A stretch of DNA of 61,563 nt from a virus (Duplodnaviria > Caudoviricetes): positions 1 to 61,563 of IMG/VR virus record IMGVR_UViG_3300044678_000872; one strand, given 5' to 3'. The position numbers were made by a program, and so were the translations under genes. Of this stretch, positions 33,125 to 59,251 are shown one piece after another (the stretch's first letter is position 1; every line of letters starts with the position of its first letter). The notes below the pieces were generated by a model. That model was not told where the DNA came from and did no database searches. It saw only the letters and a list, made by a program, of their open reading frames with translations.

Positions 33125-33629
33125 TTTAGTAAAACACTTAGACCTTGTAAACCAAGTTGCTTCTGAGTACTTAAAAGGTTTTGATGCTTCTCAAATTTCA
33201 AACACCTTGGATATTCCACGCCCAAGAGTTATGGCACTGCTTAACGATTGGCGTTCTTTAGTTTCAAATAATCAAGCCATTCATGCAAGAGCAAAAGAAG
33301 CACTTGCTGGAGCAGATCAACACTACTCATCTTTAATTAGAAAAACATATGAAGTTATAGATGCCGCAGACTCTACTGCAAATCTAACAGCAAAAACAAC
33401 CGCTATCAAACTGATAGCAGATATTGAAAGTAAAAGACTTGAGATGCTGCAAAAAGCGGGGTTGTTAGATAATAAAGAAATAGCAGAACAAATTATTGAA
33501 ATGGAAAGAAAGCACGACATATTAATTAAAATACTAAAAGATATTGCTTCATCTCATCCTGAAATAAGGGAAGAAATTGTAAAAAGACTTTCAGAGATTC
33601 AAACTGAGGTGATTGTAATTGACAATTGA
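33111..33629 (+). CDS. Terminase small subunit (putative)
   Basis: N-terminal HTH plus coiled coil, directly upstream of the large subunit. Confidence 0.55.
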   Translation: MTTDDLVKHLDLVNQVASEYLKGFDASQISNTLDIPRPRVMALLNDWRSLVSNNQAIHARAKEALAGADQHYSSLIRKTYEVIDAADSTANLTAKTTAIKLIADIESKRLEMLQKAGLLDNKEIAEQIIEMERKHDILIKILKDIASSHPEIREEIVKRLSEIQTEVIVIDN

Positions 33630-35391
33630 TTTTAGTGATTTTATAGAAGCATTGGATGAAAGTCCTTTTTTAGAAAACCCAGTAGATGTTAGAACATTTG
33701 TTACAGGTAAAGATTATTTAAATCAACCAGAGTTATCTGAATATCAATATACTCTTGTAGAATGTATGAGCCAAATATATAAAGAAGAAGATGTTGAAAG
33801 ATGGTTGGGTAAAGAAGAAGGAAAAGATCATTATAAAAAATATACTAAGCAAGAAGTTATTCTTATGTGTGGAAAAGGTAGTGGTAAAGATCATACTTCT
33901 ACTATTGGTTGTGCTTATATTGTATATAAACTATTATGTTTAAAAGATCCATCAAGATATTTTGGCAAGCCATCTAACGATGCTATAGATTTGATTAACG
34001 TAGCGGTAAACGCTCAACAAGCGAAGAACGTATTCTTTAAAGGCTTTAAATCAAAGATTGAAGGATCTCCTTGGTTTGCTGGAAAGTATGAAGCAAAGGT
34101 AGATAATATAGAATTTAATAAATCAATTACAGTTTACTCTGGACATTCTGAGCGTGAATCAGCAGAAGGATTAAACTTAATTTTAGCAGTACTAGATGAA
34201 ATCTCTGGATTTTCAATGGAAACTTCTTCAGGAAATGATCAGGGTAAGACAGCAGATAACTTATATAAAGCATTTAGAGGATCTGTAGATTCACGTTTTC
34301 CAGATTTTGGTAAAGTAATACTATTATCTTTTCCTAGATTTAAAGGTGATTTTATTTCTCAAAGATATGAAGATGTGGTTGCAGAGAAAGAAACTACATT
34401 AAGAACTTATGAGTTTACAATAAACCCACTACTTAGCGATGATGATACAAATAATAAGTTTCAAATAGAATGGGATGAAGATCATATCATATCTTATAAG
34501 TACCCTGGAGTTTTTGCTTTACGTAGACCAACGTGGGAAATGAATCCAACTAGAAAAATTGAAGATTTTAAATTAGCATTTTTTACAGATCCTTCAGATG
34601 CTTTAATGCGTTTTGCCTGTATGCCAACAGTTTCATCAGATGCATTTTTTAAATCAAGAGAGAAAATAGAAAAAGGTTTGTCTAATAGAAACCCATTAGA
34701 TAGCGTTAGAAGATTTGATATTAACTTTAAACCAAATCCAGATACAGTTTATTATGTTCACGCAGATCTTGCACAAAAGCATGATAAGTGTGCAGTTGCA
34801 ATAAGCCATGTTGATAAGTGGGTAAGTGTACAATCTTTTAATGACTATGAACAAATTGTTCCATTTGTTGTAGTAGATGCTATTGCTTGGTGGGAGCCAC
34901 ATCGTGAAGGACCAGTAGACTTAAGTGAAGTAAAGAATTGGATTATAGATTTAAGAAGACAAGGATTTAATTTAGGATTAGTAACTTTTGATCGTTGGCA
35001 ATCATTTGATATCCAACAAGAATTAAAGCAGGTAGGGATAAAGACTGAAACTTTATCTGTAGCGAAGAAACATTATGAAGATTTAACTATGTTGTTTTAT
35101 GAAGAAAGATTAGTAGCCCCACATATAGATATATTATTAGAAGAATTATTAGAACTTAGAATTATAGGAAATAGGGTAGATCATCCTCGTAAAAAATCAA
35201 AAGACTTGGCTGATGCTATGTGTGGATCAGTTTATAACTCTATATCAAATACAGAAAGAAATAGAATTAAAGAAATAGATATTCATACTTGGTCTCAGGG
35301 CGGTACAGACTCAGACAATGCAGATGATTTTTTTCCAGATAAGATTAAAGGTAGTTCCTTAGATTGGAACGGAGGGTACCGTCTTGTCTGA
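33619..35391 (+). CDS. terL: Terminase large subunit
   Basis: Walker A GKGSGKD, Walker B AVLDE, LSFPR, nuclease HADLA..D, DHP..SKDLADA. Confidence 0.93.
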   Translation: MTIDFSDFIEALDESPFLENPVDVRTFVTGKDYLNQPELSEYQYTLVECMSQIYKEEDVERWLGKEEGKDHYKKYTKQEVILMCGKGSGKDHTSTIGCAYIVYKLLCLKDPSRYFGKPSNDAIDLINVAVNAQQAKNVFFKGFKSKIEGSPWFAGKYEAKVDNIEFNKSITVYSGHSERESAEGLNLILAVLDEISGFSMETSSGNDQGKTADNLYKAFRGSVDSRFPDFGKVILLSFPRFKGDFISQRYEDVVAEKETTLRTYEFTINPLLSDDDTNNKFQIEWDEDHIISYKYPGVFALRRPTWEMNPTRKIEDFKLAFFTDPSDALMRFACMPTVSSDAFFKSREKIEKGLSNRNPLDSVRRFDINFKPNPDTVYYVHADLAQKHDKCAVAISHVDKWVSVQSFNDYEQIVPFVVVDAIAWWEPHREGPVDLSEVKNWIIDLRRQGFNLGLVTFDRWQSFDIQQELKQVGIKTETLSVAKKHYEDLTMLFYEERLVAPHIDILLEELLELRIIGNRVDHPRKKSKDLADAMCGSVYNSISNTERNRIKEIDIHTWSQGGTDSDNADDFFPDKIKGSSLDWNGGYRLV

Positions 35392-37954: not shown

Positions 37955-38165
37955 TGGTTTTAGTAAGATGGAAAGTATAGTAAAGTCTAATCCAGATCTT
38001 AGTTGGGATAACTGGTGCGTAGTTGTTGAAACAGAAGATGATGGGTACTATACTAAAAACGGAGTGTTTAAAGATAAAAAGTGGAAAAGTCAATATAGAT
38101 TTGAAATGGTGGATTACGGTGTGTGGGAAATTCCAGATAGGTTTCTAACACATGTACAAGTTTAA
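37944..38165 (+). CDS. Hypothetical protein
   Basis: ORF in the operon with a purine-rich leader. Confidence 0.6.
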   Translation: MRINGFSKMESIVKSNPDLSWDNWCVVVETEDDGYYTKNGVFKDKKWKSQYRFEMVDYGVWEIPDRFLTHVQV

Positions 38166-38433
38166 TGATAACGCACAGTGTCTTAATATGGACACAAATT
38201 TATTTTTTGATAAATACGAAGAAGATAAAAATGTATCTGTTGTTGTTGACGCATTGTGCGTTAGGTGTCCAGCACAAAGACAATGCCTTGCCTACGCAGT
38301 CAGTAACCAAGAATGGGGAGTTTGGGGTGGAGTTTATTTTGAGGGTGGAAAGATATCTAAAGAGTTTAATTCTCATAAAACAAAAGAAGACTGGTTTAAT
38401 GTTTGGTCTGGTATTGTAATGGATGCTAACTAA
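38152..38433 (+). CDS. whiB: WhiB-family Fe-S transcription factor
   Basis: AQC..D.NLFF...LCVRCPAQRQCL..A...EWGVWGG. Confidence 0.93.
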   Translation: MYKFNDNAQCLNMDTNLFFDKYEEDKNVSVVVDALCVRCPAQRQCLAYAVSNQEWGVWGGVYFEGGKISKEFNSHKTKEDWFNVWSGIVMDAN

Positions 38434-39173: not shown

Positions 39174-39560
39174 ATGGGAATGTATATTCAAGAAAAAGAT
39201 GATAAAGTAAAACAATCATTTAAGCCTAAAAAATGGCAGCCAATGATATTAAATGGAAAAGATGCAATTGTTCCTACAGAAGCAGGTAAATGCTTTTGGG
39301 AAGCACAACTACATTTGACCTTACCTAAAACAGGTAGACCAACATATGTAAAGATGAACTACTCAAGAGACTATAAAGGTAAAAACGATACCACTGGAAC
39401 AAATACATACGCTATTCCAGCAGATGTAGAATCTGTACAGTTTACACTCTCATGGTACTTTAATGCTAAACCAGACACACCAATTTCGTGTATGGTTTAT
39501 CACAATGGATCAACAGACATTGTTTCTGAAATAAGACAATTCAAAGGAATGATATTATAA
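39174..39560 (+). CDS. Hypothetical protein coupled to the M23 peptidase
   Basis: SD AGGAG; TAATG overlap. Confidence 0.65.
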   Translation: MGMYIQEKDDKVKQSFKPKKWQPMILNGKDAIVPTEAGKCFWEAQLHLTLPKTGRPTYVKMNYSRDYKGKNDTTGTNTYAIPADVESVQFTLSWYFNAKPDTPISCMVYHNGSTDIVSEIRQFKGMIL

Positions 39561-39949
39561 TGGCATCACCAATTAAAGATGGAAAGATTACAACAGCATA
39601 CAAAAAACTAGGTAAGATGTGGTCGAAAGGCTATCATACTGGGGTCGACTATGCAGTTAAGACAGGAACACCAGTACTTGCAGTTGCAGATGGAAAGATT
39701 GAACCAGCAAGTTGGGGAAAATCTTATGGAACTCAAGCAGTACAAAAAGTTGAAGGCGGATGGGTAATTTATGCACATCTATCAAAACTTGATGTAAAAG
39801 CAGGAGATAAAGTAACCAAGGGTCAACAAATTGGATTAAGTGGAAACACAGGAAACTCTTCTGGACCACACTTACATTTTGAAATGCGTGACAACATTCG
39901 TTGGTCAGCAGGAAAAGATTTAGATCCAACAGCAATTCTTAACTCATAA
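39560..39949 (+). CDS. M23 peptidase (endolysin candidate)
   Basis: HTGVD, YAHLS, SGNTGNSSGPHLHFE. Confidence 0.92.
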   Translation: MASPIKDGKITTAYKKLGKMWSKGYHTGVDYAVKTGTPVLAVADGKIEPASWGKSYGTQAVQKVEGGWVIYAHLSKLDVKAGDKVTKGQQIGLSGNTGNSSGPHLHFEMRDNIRWSAGKDLDPTAILNS

Positions 39950-40045
39950 TATATTATATTTTTAAATAATAAAGTATAATGTAAGTAGGCATATATTGCC
40001 TTGGAGTGAAAAGGAATTAATAAAAGAAGACTTAAAATAAGAGCA

Positions 40046-41413
40046 ATGCTTTTAGCACCATTGTTATTAGCATTGTTCTTTTCTTTTGTACCCCAAACTA
40101 ATGCAAACGTAGCACCTTGTGATACTTATCAAGTAAACGGTGGCGATCAAGCATTCTTAATGAATTTAAATACACCTCTTGAATGGGGTGGAACAGTTTA
40201 TACAAATAATATTTATGTAAGTCCAAAAGGAACTATTACATTTGGTGTAGGAGATTATACATTTTGGACTTTCCCACCAAGTCCATCTATATCAATTGGA
40301 TCTTGGGATTACCATGCATTTGCTAATACACCAGGTGCTCAGTGGGATCCTGGTTGGGGTGTAGGAAAAGATTTATATGTAAGATATGGATCAACTGCAA
40401 CATCTATATGTGTTGATTGGAAAGTAATGTTGTGGGGTCAAACAACTGGAGATCCTGTTTATATTAGAATGTTAGCAGAAGTAAATCCAGTTAATTATAC
40501 TTGGACTCCAACTTATCAAGTAAGTTCTAATGCACCAGCAGGTGCAAGATATGGTGCTAGATATGTTCAGAATGGTCAAGTTTTTCCATTAAGTGTTCAA
40601 ACCATTACAGAGCCACCCGCTCCAAGTCCTACGCCAACTCCTACGGAAACTCCTACGCCTACTCCAACACCTACACCAACACCTACTGAAACACCTTCAG
40701 AAAGCCCTACACCTACTCCTACGCCTACAGAAACAGTAGAGCCTAGTCCAGAGCCAACTCCTACAGAAACTCAGAGTCCAAATCCTGATCCAGTTGGTCC
40801 AGGTCCAACTGAAGAACCTGTTGTTGTACCAACTGACGAACCAGTAGAAGAAGTCCAAGAAGAAACGCCAGTGGAAGAAGAACAAGTTTTAGAACCTTCA
40901 CCTGAACCAACTCCTTTAGAAGAAATTATAGCAGTTGAAGAAGAAATGAATAATGCAATTGAAGAACTATTGGTTAATGAAGAAGAAATTACAGATGAAC
41001 AGTTAGAAAACATTGCAGAATTATTAATTCAAAACTATGAAGTAGATGAAGCAATGCCAGTAGCAGATTTAATTGAAGGATTAAATGATGAGCAAACTTT
41101 AGAATTTTTAGAACAATTAGATGAGAATCAAATAATTGAATACCGTGAAGGTGTTGAATTAGAAGCAGGTGTTGCAGTTGTATTTGAACAACTGTCAGAC
41201 CCTGCAGCCTTATTAGGAGAGTTTGTATCAGATCCAGGACAAGTGTTAGAAGCACTTGGACAATTGGGTGCTGATATGACAGAAGAAGAAAGAGAGGACT
41301 CACAAACAGTTGTTGTTGCAACAGTTATTGTGGGTCAATTAATAGGATCTGTAGCAATGTCTTCAAGCATAGTACAGATGAATGCAAGAGCAGAAATAAG
41401 GAGGATAACATGA
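40046..41413 (+). CDS. Exported protein with Pro/Thr linker, acidic stalk and C-terminal hydrophobic segment
   Basis: Signal-peptide-like N-terminus, beta domain, (PT)n repeats, Glu-rich region. Confidence 0.7.
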
Positions 41414-41895
41414 TAAAGGCAATACTAAAACCTTTTAAGTTTATCTTCAAAGCAGTTAAGTTCGTAGTTATGTTACCCATAAACCTAGTTAAGTTTATTC
41501 TAATCAAGGTTATGGCGGTAATTAAATATGTTCTTAATCTTGTTTGGAAGATACTTAAAGGTATATATAAAGGAATAGTCGTGGTAATTAAAGAAGCAAG
41601 TCAAGTTATTACCTGGATTATTACAAGTATCTGGAATGCAATTAAATGGGTATTTATTAATACCTGGAAATTAATTGTATGGGTATTTGAAAAAGCAGTA
41701 AAGTTAGTTAAATTTATATGGGCATGGCTAGTAGAAGCATTTGTAGAAACATTAAACCAATTGTGGACATTGCTAGGTATGTTCGCAGCATGGCTAGTAC
41801 TTGAAGGTAGTGCAAAAACTATCGTAGGGTATGCAATTATAACTGTCTTAATCGTATGGCTAGTAACTATACGAATAAGGGAAGGAGACGAATAA
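41410..41895 (+). CDS. Amphipathic membrane protein
   Basis: K/W/hydrophobic periodic helix plus two TM segments; ATGA coupling. Confidence 0.65.
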
Positions 41896-42179
41896 TGGCA
41901 AAAGAAACAAAACTAGATGACGAAAAAGCAATGGGAGCAGTCAGTGGTATTAAAAATATTCTTCTTAGAATAATCGCTGTATTTGCAGCCAATGGGCTTG
42001 GAGTTATTGGTGCTGGTGCAATCATCGGTATCGACACTATGAGTGCAATAATTCTTGCAGGAACTCTAGGTGTTGCTACAGTAGTTGAAAAACTAGCACG
42101 AGGATTCATTGATGATGGAAGACTAAGCATTGATGAAATCAATAGTGCATTTAACTCAGTAGATAAGAAAGCAAATTAA
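41895..42179 (+). CDS. Holin-like membrane protein
   Basis: Two TM segments, charged C-terminus; SD AAGGAG, ATG 41895. Confidence 0.5.
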   Translation: MAKETKLDDEKAMGAVSGIKNILLRIIAVFAANGLGVIGAGAIIGIDTMSAIILAGTLGVATVVEKLARGFIDDGRLSIDEINSAFNSVDKKAN

Positions 42180-42845: not shown

Positions 42846-43579
42846 AGATAAAATTTGTACCAATAAAAACAGCAATGCATGATAATAGTACCTATATTGA
42901 TTTGCCAGTTCCAGCAACTAATTTAATACCTGAATGGTTTAAAGAAATGCCACAACATATGAGTGGTGAAAAAAAAGATGCATTGTTTAAATTTAGTAAT
43001 CATGCAACAAACACAACAGTGAAAGCATGTTCTCCATTTTTAGACGGATTAAGTTCGGGTTACATATTTACTCTTCCATCAGATGTAGAGGTAAGAAGAA
43101 CTACAGATGAACATAATTTAAAATTTAGATATAGGGTAAATGAAGAAATTATATCTAACCATGATCCAATTCAACACCCAGGAATGCCAGTTCCAGAAGG
43201 TGGACAATTTAGTAATGTATTCAAGTGGTCATTTCCTTATAGAATTATTACGCCAAAAGGTTACAGCATGTTGTTTACTCATCCACTGAATAGACACGAC
43301 CTTCCTTTTAGAACATTTAGTGGAGTTGTAGAAACAGATTCATACACTCTTGCTGTTCAATTCCCATTTCAATTTACAAAAGAATTAGAAAAAGGTGATT
43401 CCTATATTATAAAGAAAGGAACCCCAGTTGTACAAATGGTTCCAATTAAAAGAGATAGTTGGGAACGAGAAAAGATTAAGCCAAATGAAGATGAAATTAA
43501 AAAGAATGTGTTTGAATATTTTTCTACAATTTCAAGATCATACAAGAAAAACTTTTGGCAAAAAAAAGAATATAAATAA
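42842..43579 (+). CDS. Hypothetical beta-rich protein (DUF6065/dUTPase-like fold, putative)
   Basis: TVKACSPF, TPKGYSMLF, GVVETD, IKKGTPVVQMVP; ATGA start at 42842. Confidence 0.55.
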   Translation: MKIKFVPIKTAMHDNSTYIDLPVPATNLIPEWFKEMPQHMSGEKKDALFKFSNHATNTTVKACSPFLDGLSSGYIFTLPSDVEVRRTTDEHNLKFRYRVNEEIISNHDPIQHPGMPVPEGGQFSNVFKWSFPYRIITPKGYSMLFTHPLNRHDLPFRTFSGVVETDSYTLAVQFPFQFTKELEKGDSYIIKKGTPVVQMVPIKRDSWEREKIKPNEDEIKKNVFEYFSTISRSYKKNFWQKKEYK

Positions 43580-43587
43580 GGAGAATA

Positions 43588-43854
43588 ATGGCACAAAAGA
43601 AAACATCTGATAGAAATACTAACAGAGCAAATGGCAAGGCTATAAAACAAAATCCTAAAGAGCCTAATGTTGGTGCTACAGGTAAAAGTCGTGGTGGATA
43701 TAATTTGGCTAAAAGACCAGATAAGGCTGCTGCTTGGGATGCTGCTAAAAAACGTCTTGCTCGTAAGGCTCGTAGAAAAGCGGCTAACCTAGCCTATAAG
43801 CATGGAGTAAGAACAGGACAACTTAAGAGGTCTACAGCAAGTGCAGATTCGTAA
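43588..43854 (+). CDS. Small highly basic protein
   Basis: SD AAGGAG; KKRLARKARRKA. Confidence 0.65.
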   Translation: MAQKKTSDRNTNRANGKAIKQNPKEPNVGATGKSRGGYNLAKRPDKAAAWDAAKKRLARKARRKAANLAYKHGVRTGQLKRSTASADS

Positions 43855-44050
43855 GCATAAGGATTATCGTGTCAATGAACTTGCAGAATTGATAGAGCAT
43901 TTGCAAGACGTAAAGTATCACATAAAGCCTTTTGAAATGGCAGAGGCTATTGTGATCTTTATGGATGATTTGCGGGGTAAAGAGTATGCTAGAAAAATAC
44001 AAGACTATGTAAAGTCTGACTACAAGTTTCAATCAAAGAATAAGGTATAA
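43841..44050 (+). CDS. Hypothetical protein
   Basis: GTG start with SD GAGG. Confidence 0.55.
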   Translation: MQIRKHKDYRVNELAELIEHLQDVKYHIKPFEMAEAIVIFMDDLRGKEYARKIQDYVKSDYKFQSKNKV

Positions 44051-44057
44051 TATTACT

Positions 44058-44462
44058 ATGTATGAATATAATGTAAAAAAGGTTTATAAAGTAGTGGATG
44101 GAGATACCATTGATGTTGATATTGATTTGGGCTTTAATGTTTCTTATTTCCAACGTGTCCGCCTTGCAGGTATCGACACACCAGAATCTCGCACAACAGA
44201 CTTACGAGAAAAAGAACTAGGATTACAATCAAAAGAGTGGCTTAAAAAGAAACTGGAAGGTGCTGAAAACATTGTTATTAAAACACAAAAACCAGATTCA
44301 ACAGAAAAATATGGTCGCATTCTAGGTGACTTACATATTAAGGGTTTTGATAAGTCCCTTAATCAAATGATGATTGATGAAGGATACGCTTGGGGATACA
44401 TGGGAGATACTAAAGTTAAAGACTTTCCAGCACTATTAGCAAAAAGAAACAAAAAGGCATAA
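44058..44462 (+). CDS. Staphylococcal nuclease-like (thermonuclease) protein
   Basis: VVDGDT, RVRLAGIDTPE, KYGRILG, GYA; leaderless promoter TATAAT at 44046-44051. Confidence 0.9.
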   Translation: MYEYNVKKVYKVVDGDTIDVDIDLGFNVSYFQRVRLAGIDTPESRTTDLREKELGLQSKEWLKKKLEGAENIVIKTQKPDSTEKYGRILGDLHIKGFDKSLNQMMIDEGYAWGYMGDTKVKDFPALLAKRNKKA

Positions 44463-44463
44463 A

Positions 44464-45393
44464 GTGTTAGCAGATATCAAAGTAGTTGGCTGCGGTGGCG
44501 GTGGAGTCAATGCTATTAATCGTATGGTTGACATGGGTTTATCTGGAGTTGAATTTGTTGCATTAAATACAGATGCTCAAGCATTAATTACAAGTCCAGC
44601 AAATATAAAATTAGATATTGGTCGTAACGTTACCAAAGGACTTGGTGCAGGTGCTGATCCAGAACAAGGAAGATTAGCAGCAGAAGAAAATATAGATGAT
44701 ATTAAAGATATAGTTTTTGGTTCAGACATGGTGTTTGTTACAGCAGGTATGGGTGGCGGAACAGGAACAGGAAGTGCTCCAGTAGTTGCAAGAGCAGCAA
44801 AAGATGTTGGTGCATTAACAATAGGTATTGTTACTACCCCATTCTTTTTTGAAGGTAAACAAAGAATGAATAAAGCCTTAGCGGGTATAGAAAAATTAAA
44901 AGAAAACGTAGATACTATTATAGTAATTCCTAATGAAAACTTATTAACTCTATTAAGTCCAAAAGTAACTATGACAGAAGCATTTGAAGAAGTAGATACT
45001 ATTTTATTAAAAGGTATTGCTTCTATTACTGATTTAATTACTACCCCTGGATTTATTAACGTGGACTTTGCAGACGTAAGACGTGTAATGGAGAACGCAG
45101 GAACAGCATTTATGGGTCTTGGATTTGGAGAAGGAAAGAATAGAGCAGATCAAGCAGCAGAGTCAGCAACTACTAGCCCTATATTGGATGTTAACTTAAA
45201 GGGTGCAAAAGGTATATTGCTTTCAATTGCATCAGCATCAAATATTACTATGGCTGAAGTTTCAACTATAACAAATGCAGTTTCAGAAAATGCTCATGAG
45301 GATGCAAACATAATTTTTGGTACAGTTGTTGATGAATCACTTGAAGATCAGATTCGTGTAACTGTAATTGCAACTGGTTTTGACGGTGAATAG
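44464..45393 (+). CDS. ftsZ: FtsZ GTPase, globular core only (no C-terminal tail)
   Basis: GCGGGGVNA, NTDAQAL, GLGAG, GMGGGTGTG, PF.FEG, INVDFADV, RVTVIATGFD, then stop after 2 residues. Confidence 0.97.
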   Translation: MLADIKVVGCGGGGVNAINRMVDMGLSGVEFVALNTDAQALITSPANIKLDIGRNVTKGLGAGADPEQGRLAAEENIDDIKDIVFGSDMVFVTAGMGGGTGTGSAPVVARAAKDVGALTIGIVTTPFFFEGKQRMNKALAGIEKLKENVDTIIVIPNENLLTLLSPKVTMTEAFEEVDTILLKGIASITDLITTPGFINVDFADVRRVMENAGTAFMGLGFGEGKNRADQAAESATTSPILDVNLKGAKGILLSIASASNITMAEVSTITNAVSENAHEDANIIFGTVVDESLEDQIRVTVIATGFDGE

Positions 45394-46058
45394 TGTCAGA
45401 ACCGCTTCATCATTTTTATCATATATACTCTAAAGGTCAATGGGAAGTTCCAGTACAAGATCACATTAGAGCATTAAAACAATACGGAATATATAATAAA
45501 CTATCTTCATTAAACGTAGGCATAGTGGGACCTCCAGAAACTAGAGAGGCTGTTAAAAATTATTTAAACTCTCAAGATATAAAATATAACGTATGCACTG
45601 AGGTAGATGATGGCTGGGAACAAGAAACATTAGATGAATTGTGGAACTTTGCAAAAAATAATGATGGTTATGCTTTATACGCACATACTAAAAATGCTGT
45701 AAACATAAACCCTCTTCATGTTTCTTGGAGAAAGTCTATGACATATTATAATGTTGTTAATTGGCAAAGTTGTGTTAAACTATTAGATAATAATTATTGT
45801 GCTGTAGGATGTCACTATTTATTAATAGATAACAAACTAGATGAAAGAATGCATGGCTTTTATGCAGGAACATATTGGTGGACGAAGATGAAATATTTAA
45901 AAAATTTTCCAAGACCAGCAAGAACTAATAGGTATGACGCAGAGGGTTGGATTGGATTTTTAAAACCTGTTGCAGAAGATATGGGTGATACATACGTTTT
46001 TCATGACTATACTCCATTTCACCCAGCAAGTGGATTAGGGTTTGTAACAGAATGGTAA
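45393..46058 (+). CDS. Glycosyltransferase-like protein (paralog 1)
   Basis: HFYHIY, WEQ.T, YAHTK, FYAGTYWW, AEGWIG; GT function inferred from family resemblance and context. Confidence 0.5.
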   Translation: MSEPLHHFYHIYSKGQWEVPVQDHIRALKQYGIYNKLSSLNVGIVGPPETREAVKNYLNSQDIKYNVCTEVDDGWEQETLDELWNFAKNNDGYALYAHTKNAVNINPLHVSWRKSMTYYNVVNWQSCVKLLDNNYCAVGCHYLLIDNKLDERMHGFYAGTYWWTKMKYLKNFPRPARTNRYDAEGWIGFLKPVAEDMGDTYVFHDYTPFHPASGLGFVTEW

Positions 46059-46699
46059 ATAACATATATCATTTTTATCACATATACGCTAATGGCAGTT
46101 GGAAAGATCCAGTAGATCAACATATAAAAGCATTAAAAAAATCTGGTTTGTATGAAGAAATAAAAACTTTAAAAATAGGATTAGTTGGTACATCAACAAG
46201 AATACAATCAGTAAAAGATTATTTATTAAGTATAGATATTAACTTTGAAGTAGTTGCAGAAAGTTTAACTGGGTGGGAACAAACTACGCAGATACCATTA
46301 CATCAGTTTGCACAGTCAAATGATGGATATGTTCTTTATGCACACACAAAAGGTGCTCATTCACAACAGCATCCTAACATTCCTTGGAGAGAAACTATGA
46401 TTCATTTTAATGTTTTAAAATGGAAAGAGTGCGTTGAAGCATTAAAAGACCATGACACAGCAGGATGTTTTTGGATACCAAGTGCTCCAAACTCACCAGA
46501 ACATTCTGGACACAATGGGTTTTACGGTGGAACTTTTTGGTGGACAACTTTAAAATTTATTAGAACCTTGCCAGAGCCAATGCTTGATCATAGGTGGAGA
46601 GCAGAGGGGTGGATAGGCATTAGACAAAATATTGATGGGCTAAAACCATTTTCATTCTTGCCAGGTAGTCCAGGAAACTATGTTGCTTTAGATGTCTAA
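46052..46699 (+). CDS. Glycosyltransferase-like protein (paralog 2)
   Basis: Same motif set: HFYHIY, WEQTT, YAHTKG, FYGGTFWW, AEGWIG. Confidence 0.5.
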   Translation: MVNNIYHFYHIYANGSWKDPVDQHIKALKKSGLYEEIKTLKIGLVGTSTRIQSVKDYLLSIDINFEVVAESLTGWEQTTQIPLHQFAQSNDGYVLYAHTKGAHSQQHPNIPWRETMIHFNVLKWKECVEALKDHDTAGCFWIPSAPNSPEHSGHNGFYGGTFWWTTLKFIRTLPEPMLDHRWRAEGWIGIRQNIDGLKPFSFLPGSPGNYVALDV

Positions 46700-47464
46700 A
46701 ACAATACATTTAAATCTATTAATAACTAATTCATAATCTTCGTGGCGATTCATATTCTCCATCGTAATACTTTCTATACCATCTAAATTTTTTATACATT
46801 TATTTATATACTTTAAGTAAGTTTTATTTTTCATAAAGTCAGCATAGTTATTGTTAGAAATGTGTATGCTTTTAACATAATTTGGATTAGGCATAGACCC
46901 AGATTCAATGTATTCATTTGCGGTATCAAAATGAGCATAAAGATTATCTATGTTTGACTCTTCTATAAACTTATTAATATAATCAGATTCATATCCAAAG
47001 TTATTGTTATACACCCTTGCATTGTTTTCTAAACAAAAAGATATTCCACGTTTACTAAATATAGATGATACAAAGTCAAAAAATATAAAATACTCAGTGA
47101 CATCGTCTCCCTGCCTTGTTGAAGGAGATCCATAAACTACGTGCTTTGCACCAAGCATAGAAGCATAGACAGCAACCTGATCAAAATGCTTTGAAAGGTA
47201 TATATAATCATCTTTGTTTAATTTACATATCTCAAAGTCTATTCCAAAGGTAATGCTTTGAAATGAATTAACTTTTAGTCCAGCCCTTTGTATTTTAAAT
47301 TTAAGATCTTCAATATCTTTTACTGATACGTCTTGCCATTTTTTATCTAACACATAGGTCAATGGTAGTTCTACATACTCAAAACCATATCTTTTTATTG
47401 TATGTAAGACTGTCTCTAACTTCTCTTCTTCAAGAAGACCTAGCAATGATACCGCTGTTATCAT
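46688..47464 (-). CDS. Sugar phosphate isomerase/epimerase (xylose isomerase-like TIM barrel)
   Basis: GFEYVEL, LGAKHVVYGSP, LENN, HFDTAN, HIS, TME metal ligands. Confidence 0.8.
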   Translation of the reverse strand: MITAVSLLGLLEEEKLETVLHTIKRYGFEYVELPLTYVLDKKWQDVSVKDIEDLKFKIQRAGLKVNSFQSITFGIDFEICKLNKDDYIYLSKHFDQVAVYASMLGAKHVVYGSPSTRQGDDVTEYFIFFDFVSSIFSKRGISFCLENNARVYNNNFGYESDYINKFIEESNIDNLYAHFDTANEYIESGSMPNPNYVKSIHISNNNYADFMKNKTYLKYINKCIKNLDGIESITMENMNRHEDYELVINRFKCIVLDI

Positions 47465-48200
47465 ATATAAATACCCTCATATCCTCTAGTACGTCCTTCT
47501 TGCTAATCAAATAATTCCAATGGTTATAGGTTGTTTTCATATCATATACCACATCAGCCTTCTCAACATAATTTTTTGATTTATATTTAAATAGATCAAA
47601 AACTTCTTGGTTTGTTATAGGTTGGGTAGCACAGTTAAGAATTTTTATATCCTGAGTTTGTACAAATTTAATCATTTGTTGTACAAGATTTACATTTATC
47701 CATTGCAGTTGGTTGTGTGGATTAACTGTATCTAAATAATCATAGTTCCTTGTAATTAAGTCAAAAAGTATGTTCTTCTTCATACCCTCACCATAGACCG
47801 TAGGAAGCCTCAAAATGCGGTAATTTAGCCCTTTTACGGCATCTTCTAGCAGCCTTCTATGGTTGCTATAGGGTTGATCAGAAAACGTCTCATCTAGTTC
47901 AAAATTTCTATTTCCTTTTGAGTAATCAAATATGTCACAAGTGGATATGTGTATTACTTCATTAGCAGTTGAAGCCTTTACAGCCTCTATAAGTCTAGAT
48001 ACCTTAGCCAAATCATCTTGTGGATTTTTATTTGCTTGCCACTTCACGGCTGAAGGTGCTGCAATTATTAGGGTATCGTGATTAATATCTGGTAGTTTAT
48101 GTATATTTTTAGAGTTATAAATATTACCTATTTGTTTGCCATAGTCTTTCATTAACTGTTGACCTATGAAACCTGAGTATCCAACTAAACTAATTGCCAT
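47430..48200 (-). CDS. NAD-dependent epimerase/dehydratase (extended SDR)
   Basis: GYSGFIG, HISTCD, Y.NHR, ILRLPTVYG. Confidence 0.85.
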   Translation of the reverse strand: MAISLVGYSGFIGQQLMKDYGKQIGNIYNSKNIHKLPDINHDTLIIAAPSAVKWQANKNPQDDLAKVSRLIEAVKASTANEVIHISTCDIFDYSKGNRNFELDETFSDQPYSNHRRLLEDAVKGLNYRILRLPTVYGEGMKKNILFDLITRNYDYLDTVNPHNQLQWINVNLVQQMIKFVQTQDIKILNCATQPITNQEVFDLFKYKSKNYVEKADVVYDMKTTYNHWNYLISKKDVLEDMRVFIYDNSGIIARSS

Positions 48201-49254
48201 CAATTTCCCTCTTAACTAATTCATAAGTAGATACTATAGATGAAATTTTACCACAGAGTACTGATATCACACAACCATCTCTTACAATAGATGTAGTCCT
48301 AAGATCATTAATGTCTTCTCTAAGTTTTACTTTTGGAGACAGATATAGTTCTTTTATTGGGGTAGAATTATTTACTCCTTTAAAATACTCTGAGCAATGA
48401 GTTAATAGTTTATGTATATCAGATTTAAGCATTAGATCTTTATATATTAAATCTCTTCTAAGTTTAGTTATAAATTCTTTGTAGTATACAGTTCTAAAAT
48501 ATGGGGTATAAGAAACACTAGATAGAGTTATATCACCTAATCCATTCTGATAGGCTGATACATACTTACCATCCATAATAGTAATACAAACATCTTCTTT
48601 GAAGAAGTTATCTACAATTGGAATAATACATATCTCATATTTTAAATTAAGCATTTTATCTTTTGACACTATACCAAGGTTAGGACTATTGTATGTACAG
48701 TTAATAATAAAATCATACTTCTCATCATCTATTTTGTTACCATCAATTTCAATAATATTTCTTTTAAGTTTCAAGGATATATTTTTAGAGTTCATAATCC
48801 TTTCTTTAAAGTATTCGTATGCCTTCTTTAAGTTTATAACTTCTTCTGTGGTAGATATCCCACCCTCAATTAGTTCAGTATTCACAAAAGGCTCAACCTC
48901 AAAGTTATCTATTTCTCTAAAGGGTACTCCAAAACTTTTATATTTATTGATATAGTCTTCCAAGTTTACTTTGCTATTCTTTTCTATTAAGTAATAGTTA
49001 TCTTTAACAGGAGATATTAAATCATAATACTTGTCTTTAAATGATTGATAGTTGTTTAGTATTTGATCAATCGTTTCATTAGACCTCGGATAGTGAAACC
49101 CCTTGTGTATTCTATGCTGATTGTTTGAAGCAGCACCTTTAAATATATCTTTTCCTTTTTCATATAAATCAATTTGTATATCTGGATAATCATTTACAAG
49201 TTCTAGGGCAATAGAGCATCCATAAAATCCCGCTCCAATAATTGCAATCTTCAT
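48190..49254 (-). CDS. FAD-dependent oxidoreductase
   Basis: IAIIGAGFYG, ASNNQHRIHKGFHYPRS, IMDG, GKI. Confidence 0.85.
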   Translation of the reverse strand: MKIAIIGAGFYGCSIALELVNDYPDIQIDLYEKGKDIFKGAASNNQHRIHKGFHYPRSNETIDQILNNYQSFKDKYYDLISPVKDNYYLIEKNSKVNLEDYINKYKSFGVPFREIDNFEVEPFVNTELIEGGISTTEEVINLKKAYEYFKERIMNSKNISLKLKRNIIEIDGNKIDDEKYDFIINCTYNSPNLGIVSKDKMLNLKYEICIIPIVDNFFKEDVCITIMDGKYVSAYQNGLGDITLSSVSYTPYFRTVYYKEFITKLRRDLIYKDLMLKSDIHKLLTHCSEYFKGVNNSTPIKELYLSPKVKLREDINDLRTTSIVRDGCVISVLCGKISSIVSTYELVKREIDGN

Positions 49255-49970
49255 TAGACTGTCACATTCATTTCAGAAAGTCTGCCGTTCCAGTTTGATT
49301 GGGCTTTGTATATGTCTAAGTATTGAAAGTTTCTAATTCTTCTAGGAGTGCTTGTTCCATATGGATTTTCAATTTGAATAGTTTGATCCCTACTTCCACA
49401 AAGTTCTGTAAAGTTCCCATCTTGATACTTTAATAAATGATCTTCAAAGTCAACGCCCCATTGTTTTTTTAACTGAATCATTCTTGGATCAGTCGATGTG
49501 TTCTTGCAGTTTAAAACTCTATCAATTTGATTGGTCAACCAAGATATTTTATATAATCCTATATTCATAGATACAGTTATGTCTAATGGACATGTATCTC
49601 TACCATCTTCTGGAAAATACTTTTCTAAATTAAACACAAAATTAGGACCAACCCAACAGGTATCGTGCATATAGAAGATGTAGTCGTAATCTTTATAGGC
49701 TTCCTGGTTTTCTACAATATGAATCATGGGGGTATATTCAAATGAATTCTGTTGTTCACAATATATCTTATGTATACCAAACTTATTTCTTAATTCTATC
49801 TCTTTACTAGATGCCTCTATAGGGTCCTGAAAGTCACCCATAACTAACAGGATGCTATCTCTTTTTATTCCAGCCTCTAACAATGACCATATATTCTTAT
49901 CTATAGTTGTTTCATAAAAGCCTTTGCATGAAGATACAGCAAAAAGGACATTGTAGTTTTTTATTCTCAT
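49254..49970 (-). CDS. Glycosyltransferase-like protein
   Basis: NSFEYT, YIFYMHDTCWVG, SMNIGLY resemble GT-A-like motifs; first gene of the sugar cassette. Confidence 0.5.
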   Translation of the reverse strand: MRIKNYNVLFAVSSCKGFYETTIDKNIWSLLEAGIKRDSILLVMGDFQDPIEASSKEIELRNKFGIHKIYCEQQNSFEYTPMIHIVENQEAYKDYDYIFYMHDTCWVGPNFVFNLEKYFPEDGRDTCPLDITVSMNIGLYKISWLTNQIDRVLNCKNTSTDPRMIQLKKQWGVDFEDHLLKYQDGNFTELCGSRDQTIQIENPYGTSTPRRIRNFQYLDIYKAQSNWNGRLSEMNVTV

Positions 49971-59130: not shown

Positions 59131-59178
59131 GAACATTCTTAAAGGTTCTTAATAGGTATAAAACAGACATCGACTGCG

Positions 59179-59251
59179 CGATCCTGACCAGATTTGAACT
59201 GGCGACCTCTACCGTGACAGGGTAGCGTTCTAACCACTGAACTACAGGACC
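59179..59251 (-). tRNA. tRNA-Asp (GTC), CCA not encoded
   Basis: GGTCCTG-TA-GTTC(AGTGGTTA)GAAC-G-CTACC(CT GTC AC)GGTAG-AGGTC-GCCAG(TTCAAAT)CTGGT-CAGGATC-G cloverleaf. Confidence 0.95.

What the first reader, a model, noticed from the sequence alone, without database searches (positions are those of the whole stretch)
44046..45393. Phage-encoded true FtsZ lacking the C-terminal linker and anchor peptide
Seen: a 309-aa protein with all FtsZ GTP-binding motifs and the catalytic T7 loop (NVDFAD) ends at IATGFDGE*. It is AT-rich like its neighbours and tightly packed between a phage nuclease and a GT-like gene, under a leaderless -10 promoter, with no dcw neighbours. Known: cellular FtsZ needs its C-terminal peptide to bind SepF/FtsA, tail-less FtsZ is dominant-negative, and described phage tubulins (PhuZ, TubZ) are far more divergent than this. 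Inference: it either co-polymerises with and poisons the host Z-ring (enlarging a small host for a bigger burst) or forms an untethered filament that organises phage DNA or assembly.
Basis: partly seen in the sequence, partly recalled or inferred. Interest (0 to 1): 0.88.

Follow-up and report, generated by a model that had tools for sequence, protein, structure and literature searches.

The report
Tail-less true FtsZ in lake actinophages
A family of large phages that probably infect lake actinobacteria carries its own well-conserved copy of the bacterial cell-division protein FtsZ, always cut off just before the tail that normally ties FtsZ to the membrane, so the phage may be tampering with how its host divides.

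Summary
The gene is real. Window 44464-45393 (+) encodes a 309-aa protein that passes NCBI's FtsZ equivalog model (392.6 bits, cut-off 295.2) and ends two residues after the globular core. It has no linker and no C-terminal peptide.

It is not an artefact. Contigs from 4 of 4 independent lake-metagenome runs bridge both junctions without change. A related complete phage genome with terminal repeats (101,664 bp) carries one too.

It is not a one-off. All 48 complete genes on other viral contigs (62-97% identity) are 308-312 aa with the same ending. They form one clade (100/100) of actinobacterial type on a long stem, are under strong purifying selection (median dN/dS 0.055-0.10), and match the phage's base composition. 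Of 112 positions conserved in cellular FtsZ, 97 are kept, including all GTP-binding loops and the catalytic loop.

WhiB and TerL point to an actinobacterial host.

Function is inferred only. The likeliest reading (0.45) is an untethered FtsZ core that co-assembles with host FtsZ and disturbs or re-purposes the division ring. The main rival is a filament of the phage's own. Eight literature searches found no published description.

The parts
44464..45393 (+). Phage ftsZ: 309-aa true FtsZ consisting of the globular core only (no N-terminal extension, no C-terminal linker, no C-terminal peptide)
   Evidence: ORF; TIGR00065 392.6 bits vs cut-off 295.2; Pfam Tubulin + FtsZ_C; gapless alignment of residues 2-307 to solved FtsZ chains, E 1.6e-112; ends 2 residues after the core
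44476..44952 (+). N-terminal GTPase domain (residues 5-163), including the GGGTGTG box at 44752-44772
   Evidence: PF00091 E 5.1e-46; G97-G103 invariant in 18 phage sequences and conserved in 103 cellular ones
45058..45075 (+). Catalytic (T7-type) loop N199-V-D-F-A-D204
   Evidence: N199, D201, F202, A203, D204 invariant in the phage clade and at least 95% conserved in cellular FtsZ. The name and role of the loop are recalled from established FtsZ knowledge
45100..45384 (+). FtsZ C-terminal subdomain (residues 213-307). The stop follows at 45391-45393, where cellular FtsZ continues into its linker
   Evidence: PF12327 E 1.1e-31, profile 1-95/95; alignments A1 and A2
44058..44462 (+). Upstream staphylococcal-nuclease-like endonuclease. 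Its stop lies 1 base before the ftsZ start. This neighbour is conserved only in FtsZ sub-clades A and B
   Evidence: PF00565 3.2e-15; phrog_452 2.5e-45; junction sequence; synteny
45393..46699 (+). Two paralogous genes (221 and 215 aa, 42% identical). The first start overlaps the ftsZ stop. They open a variable cassette that differs between related phages
   Evidence: no Pfam or PHROG match; Atlas lead DUF8361, mostly viral
46688..49970 (-). Four reverse-strand genes of sugar-modifying type (xylose-isomerase-like TIM barrel, NAD epimerase/dehydratase, FAD oxidoreductase, one unknown). They belong to the variable cassette
   Evidence: Pfam PF01261 5.5e-13, PF01370 2.5e-08, PF01266 4.8e-09; present in L005 and L002, replaced by another cassette in L003, L125, L128, L131 and sub-clade C
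38152..38433 (+). WhiB-like gene: marker of an actinobacterial host, and a conserved upstream neighbour in all FtsZ sub-clades
   Evidence: PF02467 47.1 bits vs cut-off 23.6; among 14 control genomes only Corynebacterium matches; also in 4 of 5 related records; synteny
33619..35391 (+). Large terminase: lineage marker
   Evidence: Best isolated-phage matches are Streptomyces phages at 56% identity over 95% of the protein; 94% and 77% identity in related FtsZ-bearing phage records

Best explanation
The gene encodes a catalytically competent FtsZ polymerisation core. An ancestor of this actinophage lineage captured it from an actinobacterium and stripped it of everything that connects FtsZ to the membrane and to its regulators.

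During infection it is made from an operon together with a nuclease and glycan-type enzymes. Its GTP pocket, catalytic loop and nearly all universally conserved positions are unchanged. I therefore infer that it enters host FtsZ filaments as an extra subunit with no C-terminal peptide. Mixed filaments would carry fewer anchor-binding peptides and, lacking linkers, would tend to bundle and turn over slowly. As a result, the division ring would be detached, frozen or re-purposed, and the infected cell would stop dividing while the phage replicates.

Shown: identity as FtsZ, conserved truncation, single phage clade, purifying selection, long residence in phage genomes, actinobacterial-type origin, and the absence of a phage SepF in five records.

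Inferred: polymerisation, co-assembly with host FtsZ, the effect on division, and the benefit to the phage.
For: (1) True FtsZ: TIGR00065 392.6 bits vs 295.2, with a gapless match to solved FtsZ chains.
(2) The machinery is intact: 97 of 112 columns that are at least 95% conserved in 103 cellular FtsZs are kept at 90% or more in 31 phage sequences. Only 3 differ across the whole clade, all conservatively (L240I, G257S, A269I). Retention of cellular constraints to this degree is what compatibility with cellular FtsZ would require. Known phage tubulins with filaments of their own have drifted far from FtsZ.
(3) The tail loss is the conserved, selected state. All 48 complete genes on other viral contigs are 308-312 aa and end 2-4 residues after ...ATGF. 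The 120 best of 8000 database relatives are 308-313 aa. All 113 cellular FtsZs extracted are 347-517 aa.
(4) Selection: median dN/dS is 0.055 (10 pairs), 0.102 (15 pairs) and 0.092 (253 pairs) within the three sub-clades, with unsaturated dS.
(5) No tether of its own: 0 of 5 related phage records, one of them complete, have a SepF domain, and each has exactly one FtsZ.
(6) Precedents read in papers. The GTPase domain suffices for polymerisation, a variant without the peptide forms rings but cannot divide, and loss of the linker increases bundling and slows turnover (10.1101/632075, passages). A natural tail-less FtsZ co-polymerises with the full-length one (10.1101/412759, passages).
(7) Phages are known to target FtsZ with small inhibitors such as T7 Gp0.4 (PMC13423816, abstract seen).
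Against: Nothing here measures polymerisation, co-assembly or an effect on cells.

Identity to candidate-host FtsZ cores is only 56-60%, and the real host is unknown.

The natural tail-less FtsZ1 of Agrobacterium is harmless when deleted and did not polymerise alone. The Caulobacter GTPase domain alone did not cause lethal bulging. So a tail-less core is not automatically a poison.

The phage clade has 18 signature residues, 10 of them between positions 176 and 269, in the central helix and C-terminal subdomain. These could equally mean that it has evolved self-assembly properties of its own.

Strong conservation of GTP-binding and catalytic residues fits any polymerising role, not specifically co-assembly.
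Confidence: 0.45

Rival explanations
1. A cytoskeleton of the phage's own. The phage FtsZ forms homopolymers that are not attached to the membrane, and these organise phage DNA replication, capsid assembly or positioning inside a very small host cell. That would be analogous in role to PhuZ or TubZ, but built from a canonical FtsZ core.
For: All polymerisation and GTPase motifs are kept, and the GTPase domain alone is reported to be sufficient to polymerise (10.1101/632075). The clade has 18 positions fixed to residues that occur in under 5% of cellular FtsZs. Ten of them lie between positions 176 and 269, in the central helix and C-terminal subdomain, which is compatible with altered assembly behaviour. 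The stem is long at 0.93 changes per site. The gene sits in a large (~100 kb) phage genome.
Against: No partner of the kind used by known phage or plasmid tubulin systems was recognised next to the gene, and the neighbours vary between sub-clades. The protein has stayed far closer to cellular FtsZ than any described phage tubulin. That closeness is not needed for a filament that assembles only with itself.
Confidence: 0.25
2. Host-maintenance gene. The phage supplies extra FtsZ to keep host FtsZ-dependent processes running after host gene expression is shut off, as photosynthesis or nucleotide genes do in other phages.
For: It is a host-derived housekeeping gene under strong purifying selection with all catalytic residues kept. 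That is the usual signature of phage-borne host-like metabolic genes.
Against: Without the C-terminal peptide it cannot, by established knowledge, bind the membrane anchor. A variant without the peptide forms rings but cannot support cytokinesis (10.1101/632075). The truncation is universal in the clade, so the part needed for normal function has been selected away. Keeping a doomed cell dividing has no obvious benefit for a lytic phage.
Confidence: 0.08
3. Decoy or sink. The core acts without joining filaments in a functional way. It might titrate host factors that bind the FtsZ globular domain, or shield the phage from a host defence that monitors FtsZ.
For: At least one defence protein is reported to sense a phage protein in complex with FtsZ (PMC13423816, abstract), so FtsZ is a node in phage-host conflict. 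Clade-specific changes fall in residues 257-263. From memory, these align with the E. coli segment 266-272, which is known for inhibitor resistance and the lower filament face. This mapping is a recalled lead, not a test.
Against: A pure decoy would not need an intact GTP pocket and catalytic loop, yet these are invariant. No defence or anti-defence gene was identified beside it, and I did not scan the neighbours against PADLOC.
Confidence: 0.1
4. Artefact or decaying passenger: an assembly chimera with host DNA, or a recently captured fragment that is degenerating.
For: Truncated host genes on viral contigs are often artefacts. Several FtsZ hits in the annotated phage collection are bacterial DNA or full-length cellular-type genes: 6 of 6 checked are 383-443 aa with tails, and two lie in ftsQ-ftsA-ftsZ-lpxC context.
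Against: Both junctions are bridged by unchanged contigs in 4 of 4 independent runs, and the stretch is held by runs of 18 studies. The gene is present in a complete phage genome with terminal repeats. dN/dS is 0.04-0.15. GC3 equals that of phage core genes. The gene order TerL-WhiB-FtsZ is conserved, with TerL at 77-94% identity.
Confidence: 0.01

Closest known systems
Cellular FtsZ of Actinomycetota (division-ring protein; TIGR00065)
   Same: Same family by the curated equivalog model. It shares 56-61% identity with no gaps across the whole core. In the tree it groups with actinobacterial-type FtsZ against an outgroup set (100/97) that includes Staphylococcus-, Enterococcus-, Acinetobacter- and Salmonella-labelled records. 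All GTP-binding and catalytic motifs are shared.
   Different: It has no linker and no C-terminal peptide, while cellular ones are 347-517 aa. It is not in a division gene cluster. It is phage-borne and forms its own clade on a 0.93 stem. It has 18 clade-specific residues and phage-like codon composition.
Natural tail-less FtsZ paralogues of Alphaproteobacteria (Agrobacterium tumefaciens FtsZ1; the truncated FtsZs of Rhizobium meliloti and Magnetospirillum gryphiswaldense)
   Same: Same architecture: a complete GTPase core truncated after the globular domain, existing alongside a full-length FtsZ. FtsZ1 joins the full-length protein's ring and co-polymerises with it (10.1101/412759, passages read). 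This is the best model for how the phage protein may behave.
   Different: Those are chromosomal paralogues in a different phylum and are dispensable for division. I did not include them in a tree. The phage clade groups with actinobacterial FtsZ, so the truncation probably arose independently. Here the full-length partner would belong to another genome (the host), so the relationship may be antagonistic rather than cooperative.
Phage and plasmid tubulins PhuZ and TubZ
   Same: They are members of the tubulin/FtsZ superfamily encoded by phages, and they form cytoskeletal filaments during infection (PMC3678025, abstract seen).
   Different: They are very divergent from FtsZ. The window protein matches no PHROG family at all. 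Non-FtsZ tubulin-type chains in the PDB match at only E 7e-7 to 1e-4. It is not a member of those families.
Small phage-encoded inhibitors of FtsZ (T7 Gp0.4; also lambda Kil and the prophage DicB, both recalled)
   Same: Possibly the same goal: interfering with the host division ring during infection (PMC13423816, abstract).
   Different: Those are short, unrelated peptides that bind FtsZ. This would be interference by a look-alike subunit, which none of my literature searches found described for a phage.
FtsZ/tubulin-like GTPase of megaphage G
   Same: A phage gene annotated as ftsZ-like and regarded as host-derived (10.1101/2024.12.16.628780, passages).
   Different: The authors describe it as a FtsZ/tubulin-like GTPase with a CetZ-type KEGG assignment that clusters away from phage tubulins. 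It is not presented as a canonical FtsZ, and I did not compare the sequences.

Membership tests
FtsZ (TIGR00065 equivalog) | Whole-protein score above the curated equivalog cut-off | tested here: met
   392.6 bits against a cut-off of 295.2, covering profile positions 18-325 of 353; 398.8 bits in the six-frame genome search
FtsZ (TIGR00065 equivalog) | Two-domain core: tubulin-type GTPase domain followed by the FtsZ C-terminal subdomain | tested here: met
   PF00091 E 5.1e-46 and PF12327 E 1.1e-31, the latter over its full profile. The order of strands and helices in the model agrees with the FtsZ fold as I recall it, at moderate confidence (pLDDT 69.7)
FtsZ (TIGR00065 equivalog) | Nucleotide-binding loops, including the GGGTG(S/T)G signature | tested here: met
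   GGGG.NA, NTD.Q, GLGAG, GGGTGTG, PF.FE and PN motifs are conserved in both the cellular and phage sets and invariant in 18 phage sequences
FtsZ (TIGR00065 equivalog) | Catalytic loop N-x-D-x-x-D, which completes the GTPase site of the neighbouring subunit | tested here: met
   N199, D201 and D204 are invariant
FtsZ (TIGR00065 equivalog) | Disordered C-terminal linker plus conserved C-terminal peptide that binds membrane anchors (needed for division function, though not for family membership) | tested here: not met
   The protein ends 2 residues after the core. The cellular relatives have a linker, and a conserved ...D(V/I)PDF(L/M)K-type end is visible in most of those printed. All 48 complete phage-clade genes lack both
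FtsZ (TIGR00065 equivalog) | Location in a cell-division / cell-wall gene cluster | tested here: not met
   The neighbours are a nuclease and variable sugar-type cassettes in a phage genome. For comparison, ftsQ-ftsA-ftsZ-lpxC is seen in bacterial records
FtsZ (TIGR00065 equivalog) | GTP-dependent polymerisation and GTP hydrolysis | not testable with these tools
   Needs purified protein
PhuZ / TubZ phage tubulins | Sequence membership in the divergent phage/plasmid tubulin families | tested here: not met
   No PHROG family at E 0.001 or better. The best solved relatives are all FtsZ at E 1e-112 to 1e-75, and other tubulin-type chains reach only E 7e-7 or weaker
Tail-less cellular FtsZ paralogues (Agrobacterium FtsZ1 type) | Core-only architecture alongside a full-length FtsZ | tested here: met
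   The architecture is met; the full-length partner would be the host's
Tail-less cellular FtsZ paralogues (Agrobacterium FtsZ1 type) | Common descent with the alphaproteobacterial truncated paralogues | not tested
   No such sequence was in my trees. The phage clade groups with actinobacterial-type FtsZ, which argues for an independent origin

The most novel reading that the evidence does not exclude
An abundant lineage of lake actinophages disables or takes over host cell division with a 'Trojan subunit'. This is a captured FtsZ reduced to its polymerising core. It would co-assemble with host FtsZ and strip the ring of its membrane-anchor and regulatory contacts. That would be a new class of phage division effector, acting by subunit mimicry rather than by a small inhibitor. 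It would also be a natural experiment on what the FtsZ tail is for.
Probability: 0.4. Interest if true: 0.85.

Novelty: new variant of a known kind. Interest (0 to 1): 0.74.

Why it matters
FtsZ is among the most studied bacterial proteins, and its tail is regarded as indispensable for division. Here nature has kept a tail-less but otherwise near-perfect FtsZ under strong selection, across a deep clade of phages found in lake metagenomes from 18 studies.

If it co-assembles with host FtsZ, it gives a new mechanism of phage control over the host cell cycle. It would also be a ready-made tool for perturbing the actinobacterial division ring. If instead it forms its own filament, it shows a phage cytoskeleton at an early stage of divergence from FtsZ, bridging cellular FtsZ and the highly diverged PhuZ/TubZ proteins.

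Either outcome can be tested directly with standard biochemistry and imaging in model actinobacteria. The gene is also a convenient marker for this phage lineage in freshwater surveys.

Tried and rejected
Complex prediction. I folded the candidate-host FtsZ core (alignment A3, residues 1-318) with the phage FtsZ (alignment A2). The verdict was 'no answer' (scores 0.00 and 0.01, mark 0.32) and the controls were not folded. This is not evidence either way.

RNA evidence. No RNA holder was listed for window 43500-46500, so nothing can be said about expression.

Earlier findings of this scan.

Donor lineage. I tried to place the phage clade within Actinomycetota. The quick 151-row tree put it outside the crown group. 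The careful 70-row tree put it inside (84/95), but with only 33-53% bootstrap further in. An AU test did not reject a sister relationship with the small-genome order (lnL difference 6.4, p 0.326). The donor stays unresolved, so I dropped any claim about a specific donor or about the age of the capture.

Rows left out of the trees. The 151-row tree used 31 non-identical complete viral genes of the 62-97% tiers, 2 outlier viral genes (L167, L170), all 80 genome-contig loci, 16 of the 31 loci of the small-genome order (every second one), and 22 of the 140 lower-ranked representatives (every sixth one under 650 aa). The 70-row tree was a hand-picked subset: 11 viral, L170, 44 actinobacterial-type and 14 outgroup rows. 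L079 and L167 were omitted as long branches.

Promoter idea. Rejected as unsupported, because site counts equal the shuffled expectation.

Phage-collection 'precedents'. There were 27 records with FtsZ matches, all under 60% identity. I checked 6 and all were full-length cellular-type genes. The other 21 were not inspected.

GTDB genomes. None of the best 80 of 599 confirmed stretches exceeded 61% identity, so no member of the phage clade was seen in cellular genomes.

Structure model. Confidence was only moderate (pLDDT 69.7, with the last 25 residues under 50), so I did not run fold searches on it. I used it only for the order of helices and strands.

Literature. Searches found no description of a canonical or tail-less FtsZ encoded by phages. 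The freshwater phage paper PMC6802176 has 0 occurrences of 'FtsZ' in its text. The listing for the Nanopelagicales phage isolation paper PMC10202952 shows 0 occurrences.

From memory, not from any call: that PDB 1rlu and its relatives are Mycobacterium tuberculosis FtsZ; the names T1-T7 for the loops; SepF as the actinobacterial FtsZ anchor; lambda Kil and DicB; and the alignment of residues 257-263 with E. coli 266-272.
Full report
THE OBSERVATION

Window 44464-45393 (+) is an open frame of 309 codons that starts with GTG and ends ...IATGFDGE*. It carries the Pfam tubulin/FtsZ GTPase domain (E 5.1e-46) and the FtsZ C-terminal subdomain over its whole profile (E 1.1e-31). It scores 392.6 bits against NCBI's FtsZ equivalog model, whose cut-off is 295.2. 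Residues 2-307 align without any gap to solved FtsZ chains at E 1.6e-112.

An alignment with the nine nearest cellular representatives shows that the phage protein stops two residues after the last strand of the globular core. The cellular proteins continue through a long variable linker, and four of the nine show a D-L-D-V-P-D-F-L-K end. The phage protein also lacks the short N-terminal extension.

The stated start of the finding (44046) lies upstream of the neighbouring nuclease gene.

CONTEXT

The window is a whole viral record, linear and estimated 57% complete. It encodes a major head protein, a 2045-aa tape measure, a tail spike, DnaB helicase, primase, a UvsX-like recombinase, large terminase and DNA polymerase.

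Upstream of ftsZ lies a staphylococcal-nuclease-type endonuclease, whose TAA stop is one base before the ftsZ GTG. The ftsZ TAG overlaps the GTG of the next gene. Promoter-like sites in the region occur at the shuffled expectation (42 against 41.0 +/- 6.4). The gene therefore looks like an internal, translationally coupled member of an operon.

The two downstream genes (221 and 215 aa, 42% identical to each other) have no Pfam or PHROG match. An Atlas look-up places the first with the mostly viral DUF8361 family, which is a lead only.

IS IT AN ARTEFACT? NO

Runs from 18 studies, nearly all labelled lake or freshwater metagenomes, hold at least half of the sampled words of window 43500-46500. 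I laid four of these runs, leaving out the possible source. In each of them:
- One unchanged contig spans 43831 to 44583 or 44614, across the nuclease-ftsZ junction.
- Another unchanged contig spans 44908 or 45111 to 46500, across the ftsZ-downstream junction.
- No joints or indels were reported.

A related record, G065 (101,664 bp, direct terminal repeats, rated 100% complete), carries exactly one FtsZ-type gene.

The gene's GC3 (14.8%) equals that of the phage's terminase (16.2%) and polymerase (17.2%). It is far from ftsZ in the five small-genome-order loci measured (28-36%).

IS IT A ONE-OFF? NO

The large protein collection returned 8000 scored relatives. The best 120 are all 92-100% identical and 308-313 aa, from several data sources.

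Scanning the viral contig collection with an alignment gave 54 loci in identity tiers of 95-97%, about 80% and 62-65%. I extracted the full frame at each. All 48 complete genes on contigs other than the window are 308-312 aa and end 2-4 residues after ...ATGF. Three further genes cut by a contig end show the same ending.

By contrast, all 113 cellular FtsZ genes I extracted are 347-517 aa. All 61 genomes searched in one small-genome actinobacterial order carry a single FtsZ in an open frame of 379-402 aa.

PHYLOGENY

In a 151-row tree the 31 non-identical tail-less viral proteins form one clade (SH-aLRT 99).

In a careful 70-row tree with labelled outgroups:
- The viral clade has 100/100 support and a stem of 0.93 changes per site.
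- Viral plus actinobacterial-type rows separate from an outgroup set (100/97) that includes Staphylococcus-, Enterococcus-, Acinetobacter- and Salmonella-labelled records.
- The viral clade falls within the crown Actinomycetes (84/95), but with weak support deeper in (33-53% bootstrap).

An AU test does not reject a sister relationship with the small-genome order (p 0.326). The safe statement is this: the clade is of actinobacterial type, is a single clade, is phage-specific and is long-branched. The donor lineage is unresolved.

The best cellular matches are nearly all labelled Actinomycetota at a flat 56-61% identity.

SELECTION AND CONSERVATION

Nei-Gojobori dN/dS within the three sub-clades has medians of 0.055 (10 pairs), 0.102 (15 pairs) and 0.092 (253 pairs). 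It is 0.138 between sub-clades A and B (30 pairs). dS is not saturated.

Of 112 alignment columns that are at least 95% conserved in 103 cellular FtsZs, 97 are kept at 90% or more in the phage clade. Nine have a different consensus: three across the whole clade (L240I, G257S, A269I) and six in one sub-clade only. All nine are conservative. The remaining six keep the cellular consensus residue but at under 90%. Every nucleotide-binding motif and the N-x-D-F-A-D loop is invariant.

Eighteen positions are fixed in the phage clade to residues found in fewer than 5% of cellular sequences. Ten of them lie between positions 176 and 269, which by the model's secondary structure is the long central helix and the C-terminal subdomain.

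From memory, residues 257-263 align with E. coli 266-272. That segment is known for inhibitor resistance and for the lower filament face. This is a lead, not a result.

LINEAGE AND HOST

The terminase is 56% identical over 95% of its length to large Streptomyces phages, and many Gordonia phages follow. The window encodes a WhiB-like protein (47.1 bits against a cut-off of 23.6). Among 14 control genomes only the actinobacterium matches.

Related records show the following:
- TerL is 94% identical in a sub-clade A record and 77% identical in three sub-clade C records, including the complete genome.
- WhiB is present in 4 of 5 related records.
- The order TerL - WhiB - FtsZ is the same as in the window.

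So ftsZ has been inherited within one actinophage lineage. It diverges faster (62-65% between sub-clades A and C) than the terminase does.

The gene keeps a fixed slot, and the nuclease neighbour is found only in sub-clades A and B. Downstream lies a variable cassette of glycan-type genes:
- In the window these are a TIM-barrel, an epimerase and an FAD oxidoreductase.
- In other phages they are a HAD-plus-nucleotidyltransferase fusion, a methyltransferase and a weak GT2 match.

One cassette type is 82-92% identical between phages whose FtsZs are only 62-65% identical, so the cassette is exchanged by recombination.

None of five related records has a SepF domain.

MECHANISM

Shown:
- a catalytically intact FtsZ core;
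- loss of the tail as the conserved state;
- no phage-encoded SepF.

From papers (passages read):
- The GTPase domain is sufficient to polymerise.
- A variant without the terminal peptide makes rings but cannot divide.
- Loss of the linker increases bundling and slows turnover.
- The Caulobacter core alone does not cause the lethal bulging seen with the linker-less, peptide-bearing form (10.1101/632075).
- Agrobacterium's natural tail-less FtsZ1 needs the full-length FtsZ to reach midcell, co-polymerises with it, and is dispensable (10.1101/412759).

My best inference (0.45) is that the phage protein enters host filaments as a subunit without a tail. That would dilute the contacts with anchors and regulators, change filament dynamics, and so block or re-purpose the ring during infection. 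The near-complete retention of cellular constraints argues for this reading, because a filament that assembles only with itself would not need them.

Rivals:
- A filament of the phage's own (0.25), favoured by the 18 signature residues.
- A decoy or sink (0.10).
- Host maintenance (0.08), disfavoured by the missing peptide.
- An artefact (0.01).

No experiment or prediction here measures binding. The one complex job gave no verdict and is listed only under Tried and rejected.

COMPARISON AND NOVELTY

The protein is a member of the FtsZ family by every sequence criterion tested. It lacks the tail and the genomic context of a division FtsZ. It is not a PhuZ or TubZ. Architecturally it resembles the tail-less alphaproteobacterial paralogues, probably by independent loss.

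The FtsZ-like gene of megaphage G is described by its authors as a CetZ-type tubulin-like GTPase. FtsZ matches in the annotated phage collection are cellular-type genes in the 6 of 27 records I inspected.

Eight literature searches found no description of a canonical, tail-less FtsZ clade in phages. Supplementary tables could not be read.

I rate it a new variant of a known kind, with interest 0.74.

Noticed in passing
L170 4926-5948 (viral contig record G069, 34,531 bp): Another viral contig encodes a more distant FtsZ (53% identical, about 334-340 aa). It keeps a short tail of roughly 24 residues ending ...DFRDLFKK. Two of its genes resemble window genes (46-49% identity), but no TerL or WhiB match was found on this 33%-complete record. 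It sits on a long branch whose placement changes between trees. It may be a separate capture, or a stage before complete tail loss.
   Followed up: partly
window 45393-49970; L003 6917-12732; L133 5920-9781; L141 5920-9616: Directly downstream of ftsZ is a hypervariable slot filled by alternative cassettes of sugar-nucleotide or glycan-type genes. One cassette type is 82-92% identical across phages whose FtsZs are only 62-65% identical, so it moves by recombination. It may modify virions, DNA or the host envelope.
   Followed up: partly
window 45393-46058 and 46052-46699: A tandem pair of paralogous genes (42% identity), both starting ...HFYHIY, with no Pfam-A or PHROG match. The Atlas places the first with the mostly viral DUF8361 family (score 0.98), whose automatic names vary between methyltransferase and glycosyltransferase.
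   Followed up: partly
window 39560-42179: A possible lysis or envelope module about 2-5 kb upstream of ftsZ. It holds a 129-aa metallo-endopeptidase-type protein (phrog_7767 1.4e-29, with many endolysin families also matching), a 455-aa protein with a hydrophobic N-terminus and a long Pro/Thr-rich linker, and two small hydrophobic proteins.
   Followed up: no
phage-collection records H16/H17 (Acinetobacter phage MD-2021a), H18 (a Salmonella enterica contig), and H1, H6, H10, H13: Records filed in the phage collection contain ordinary bacterial division clusters (ftsQ-ftsA-ftsZ-lpxC) or full-length cellular-type ftsZ genes of 383-443 aa. They look like host DNA or mislabelled records.
   Followed up: yes
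proteins P0121 (840 aa), P0122 (826 aa), P0125 (744 aa): The top-scoring representatives in the 50%-clustered library have two FtsZ-matching stretches each. They are either tandem FtsZ fusions or mis-joined gene calls. I did not examine them.
   Followed up: no
window 44494-44526 and 44824-44856 (inside ftsZ): When run contigs were laid at 90% likeness, short pieces with higher-GC loose ends stopped at the most conserved ftsZ segments. This is most simply explained by cellular ftsZ genes of co-occurring bacteria matching over these short stretches.
   Followed up: no
window 59178-59251 (-): A single tRNA-Asp (GTC) gene lies near the end of the window.
   Followed up: no
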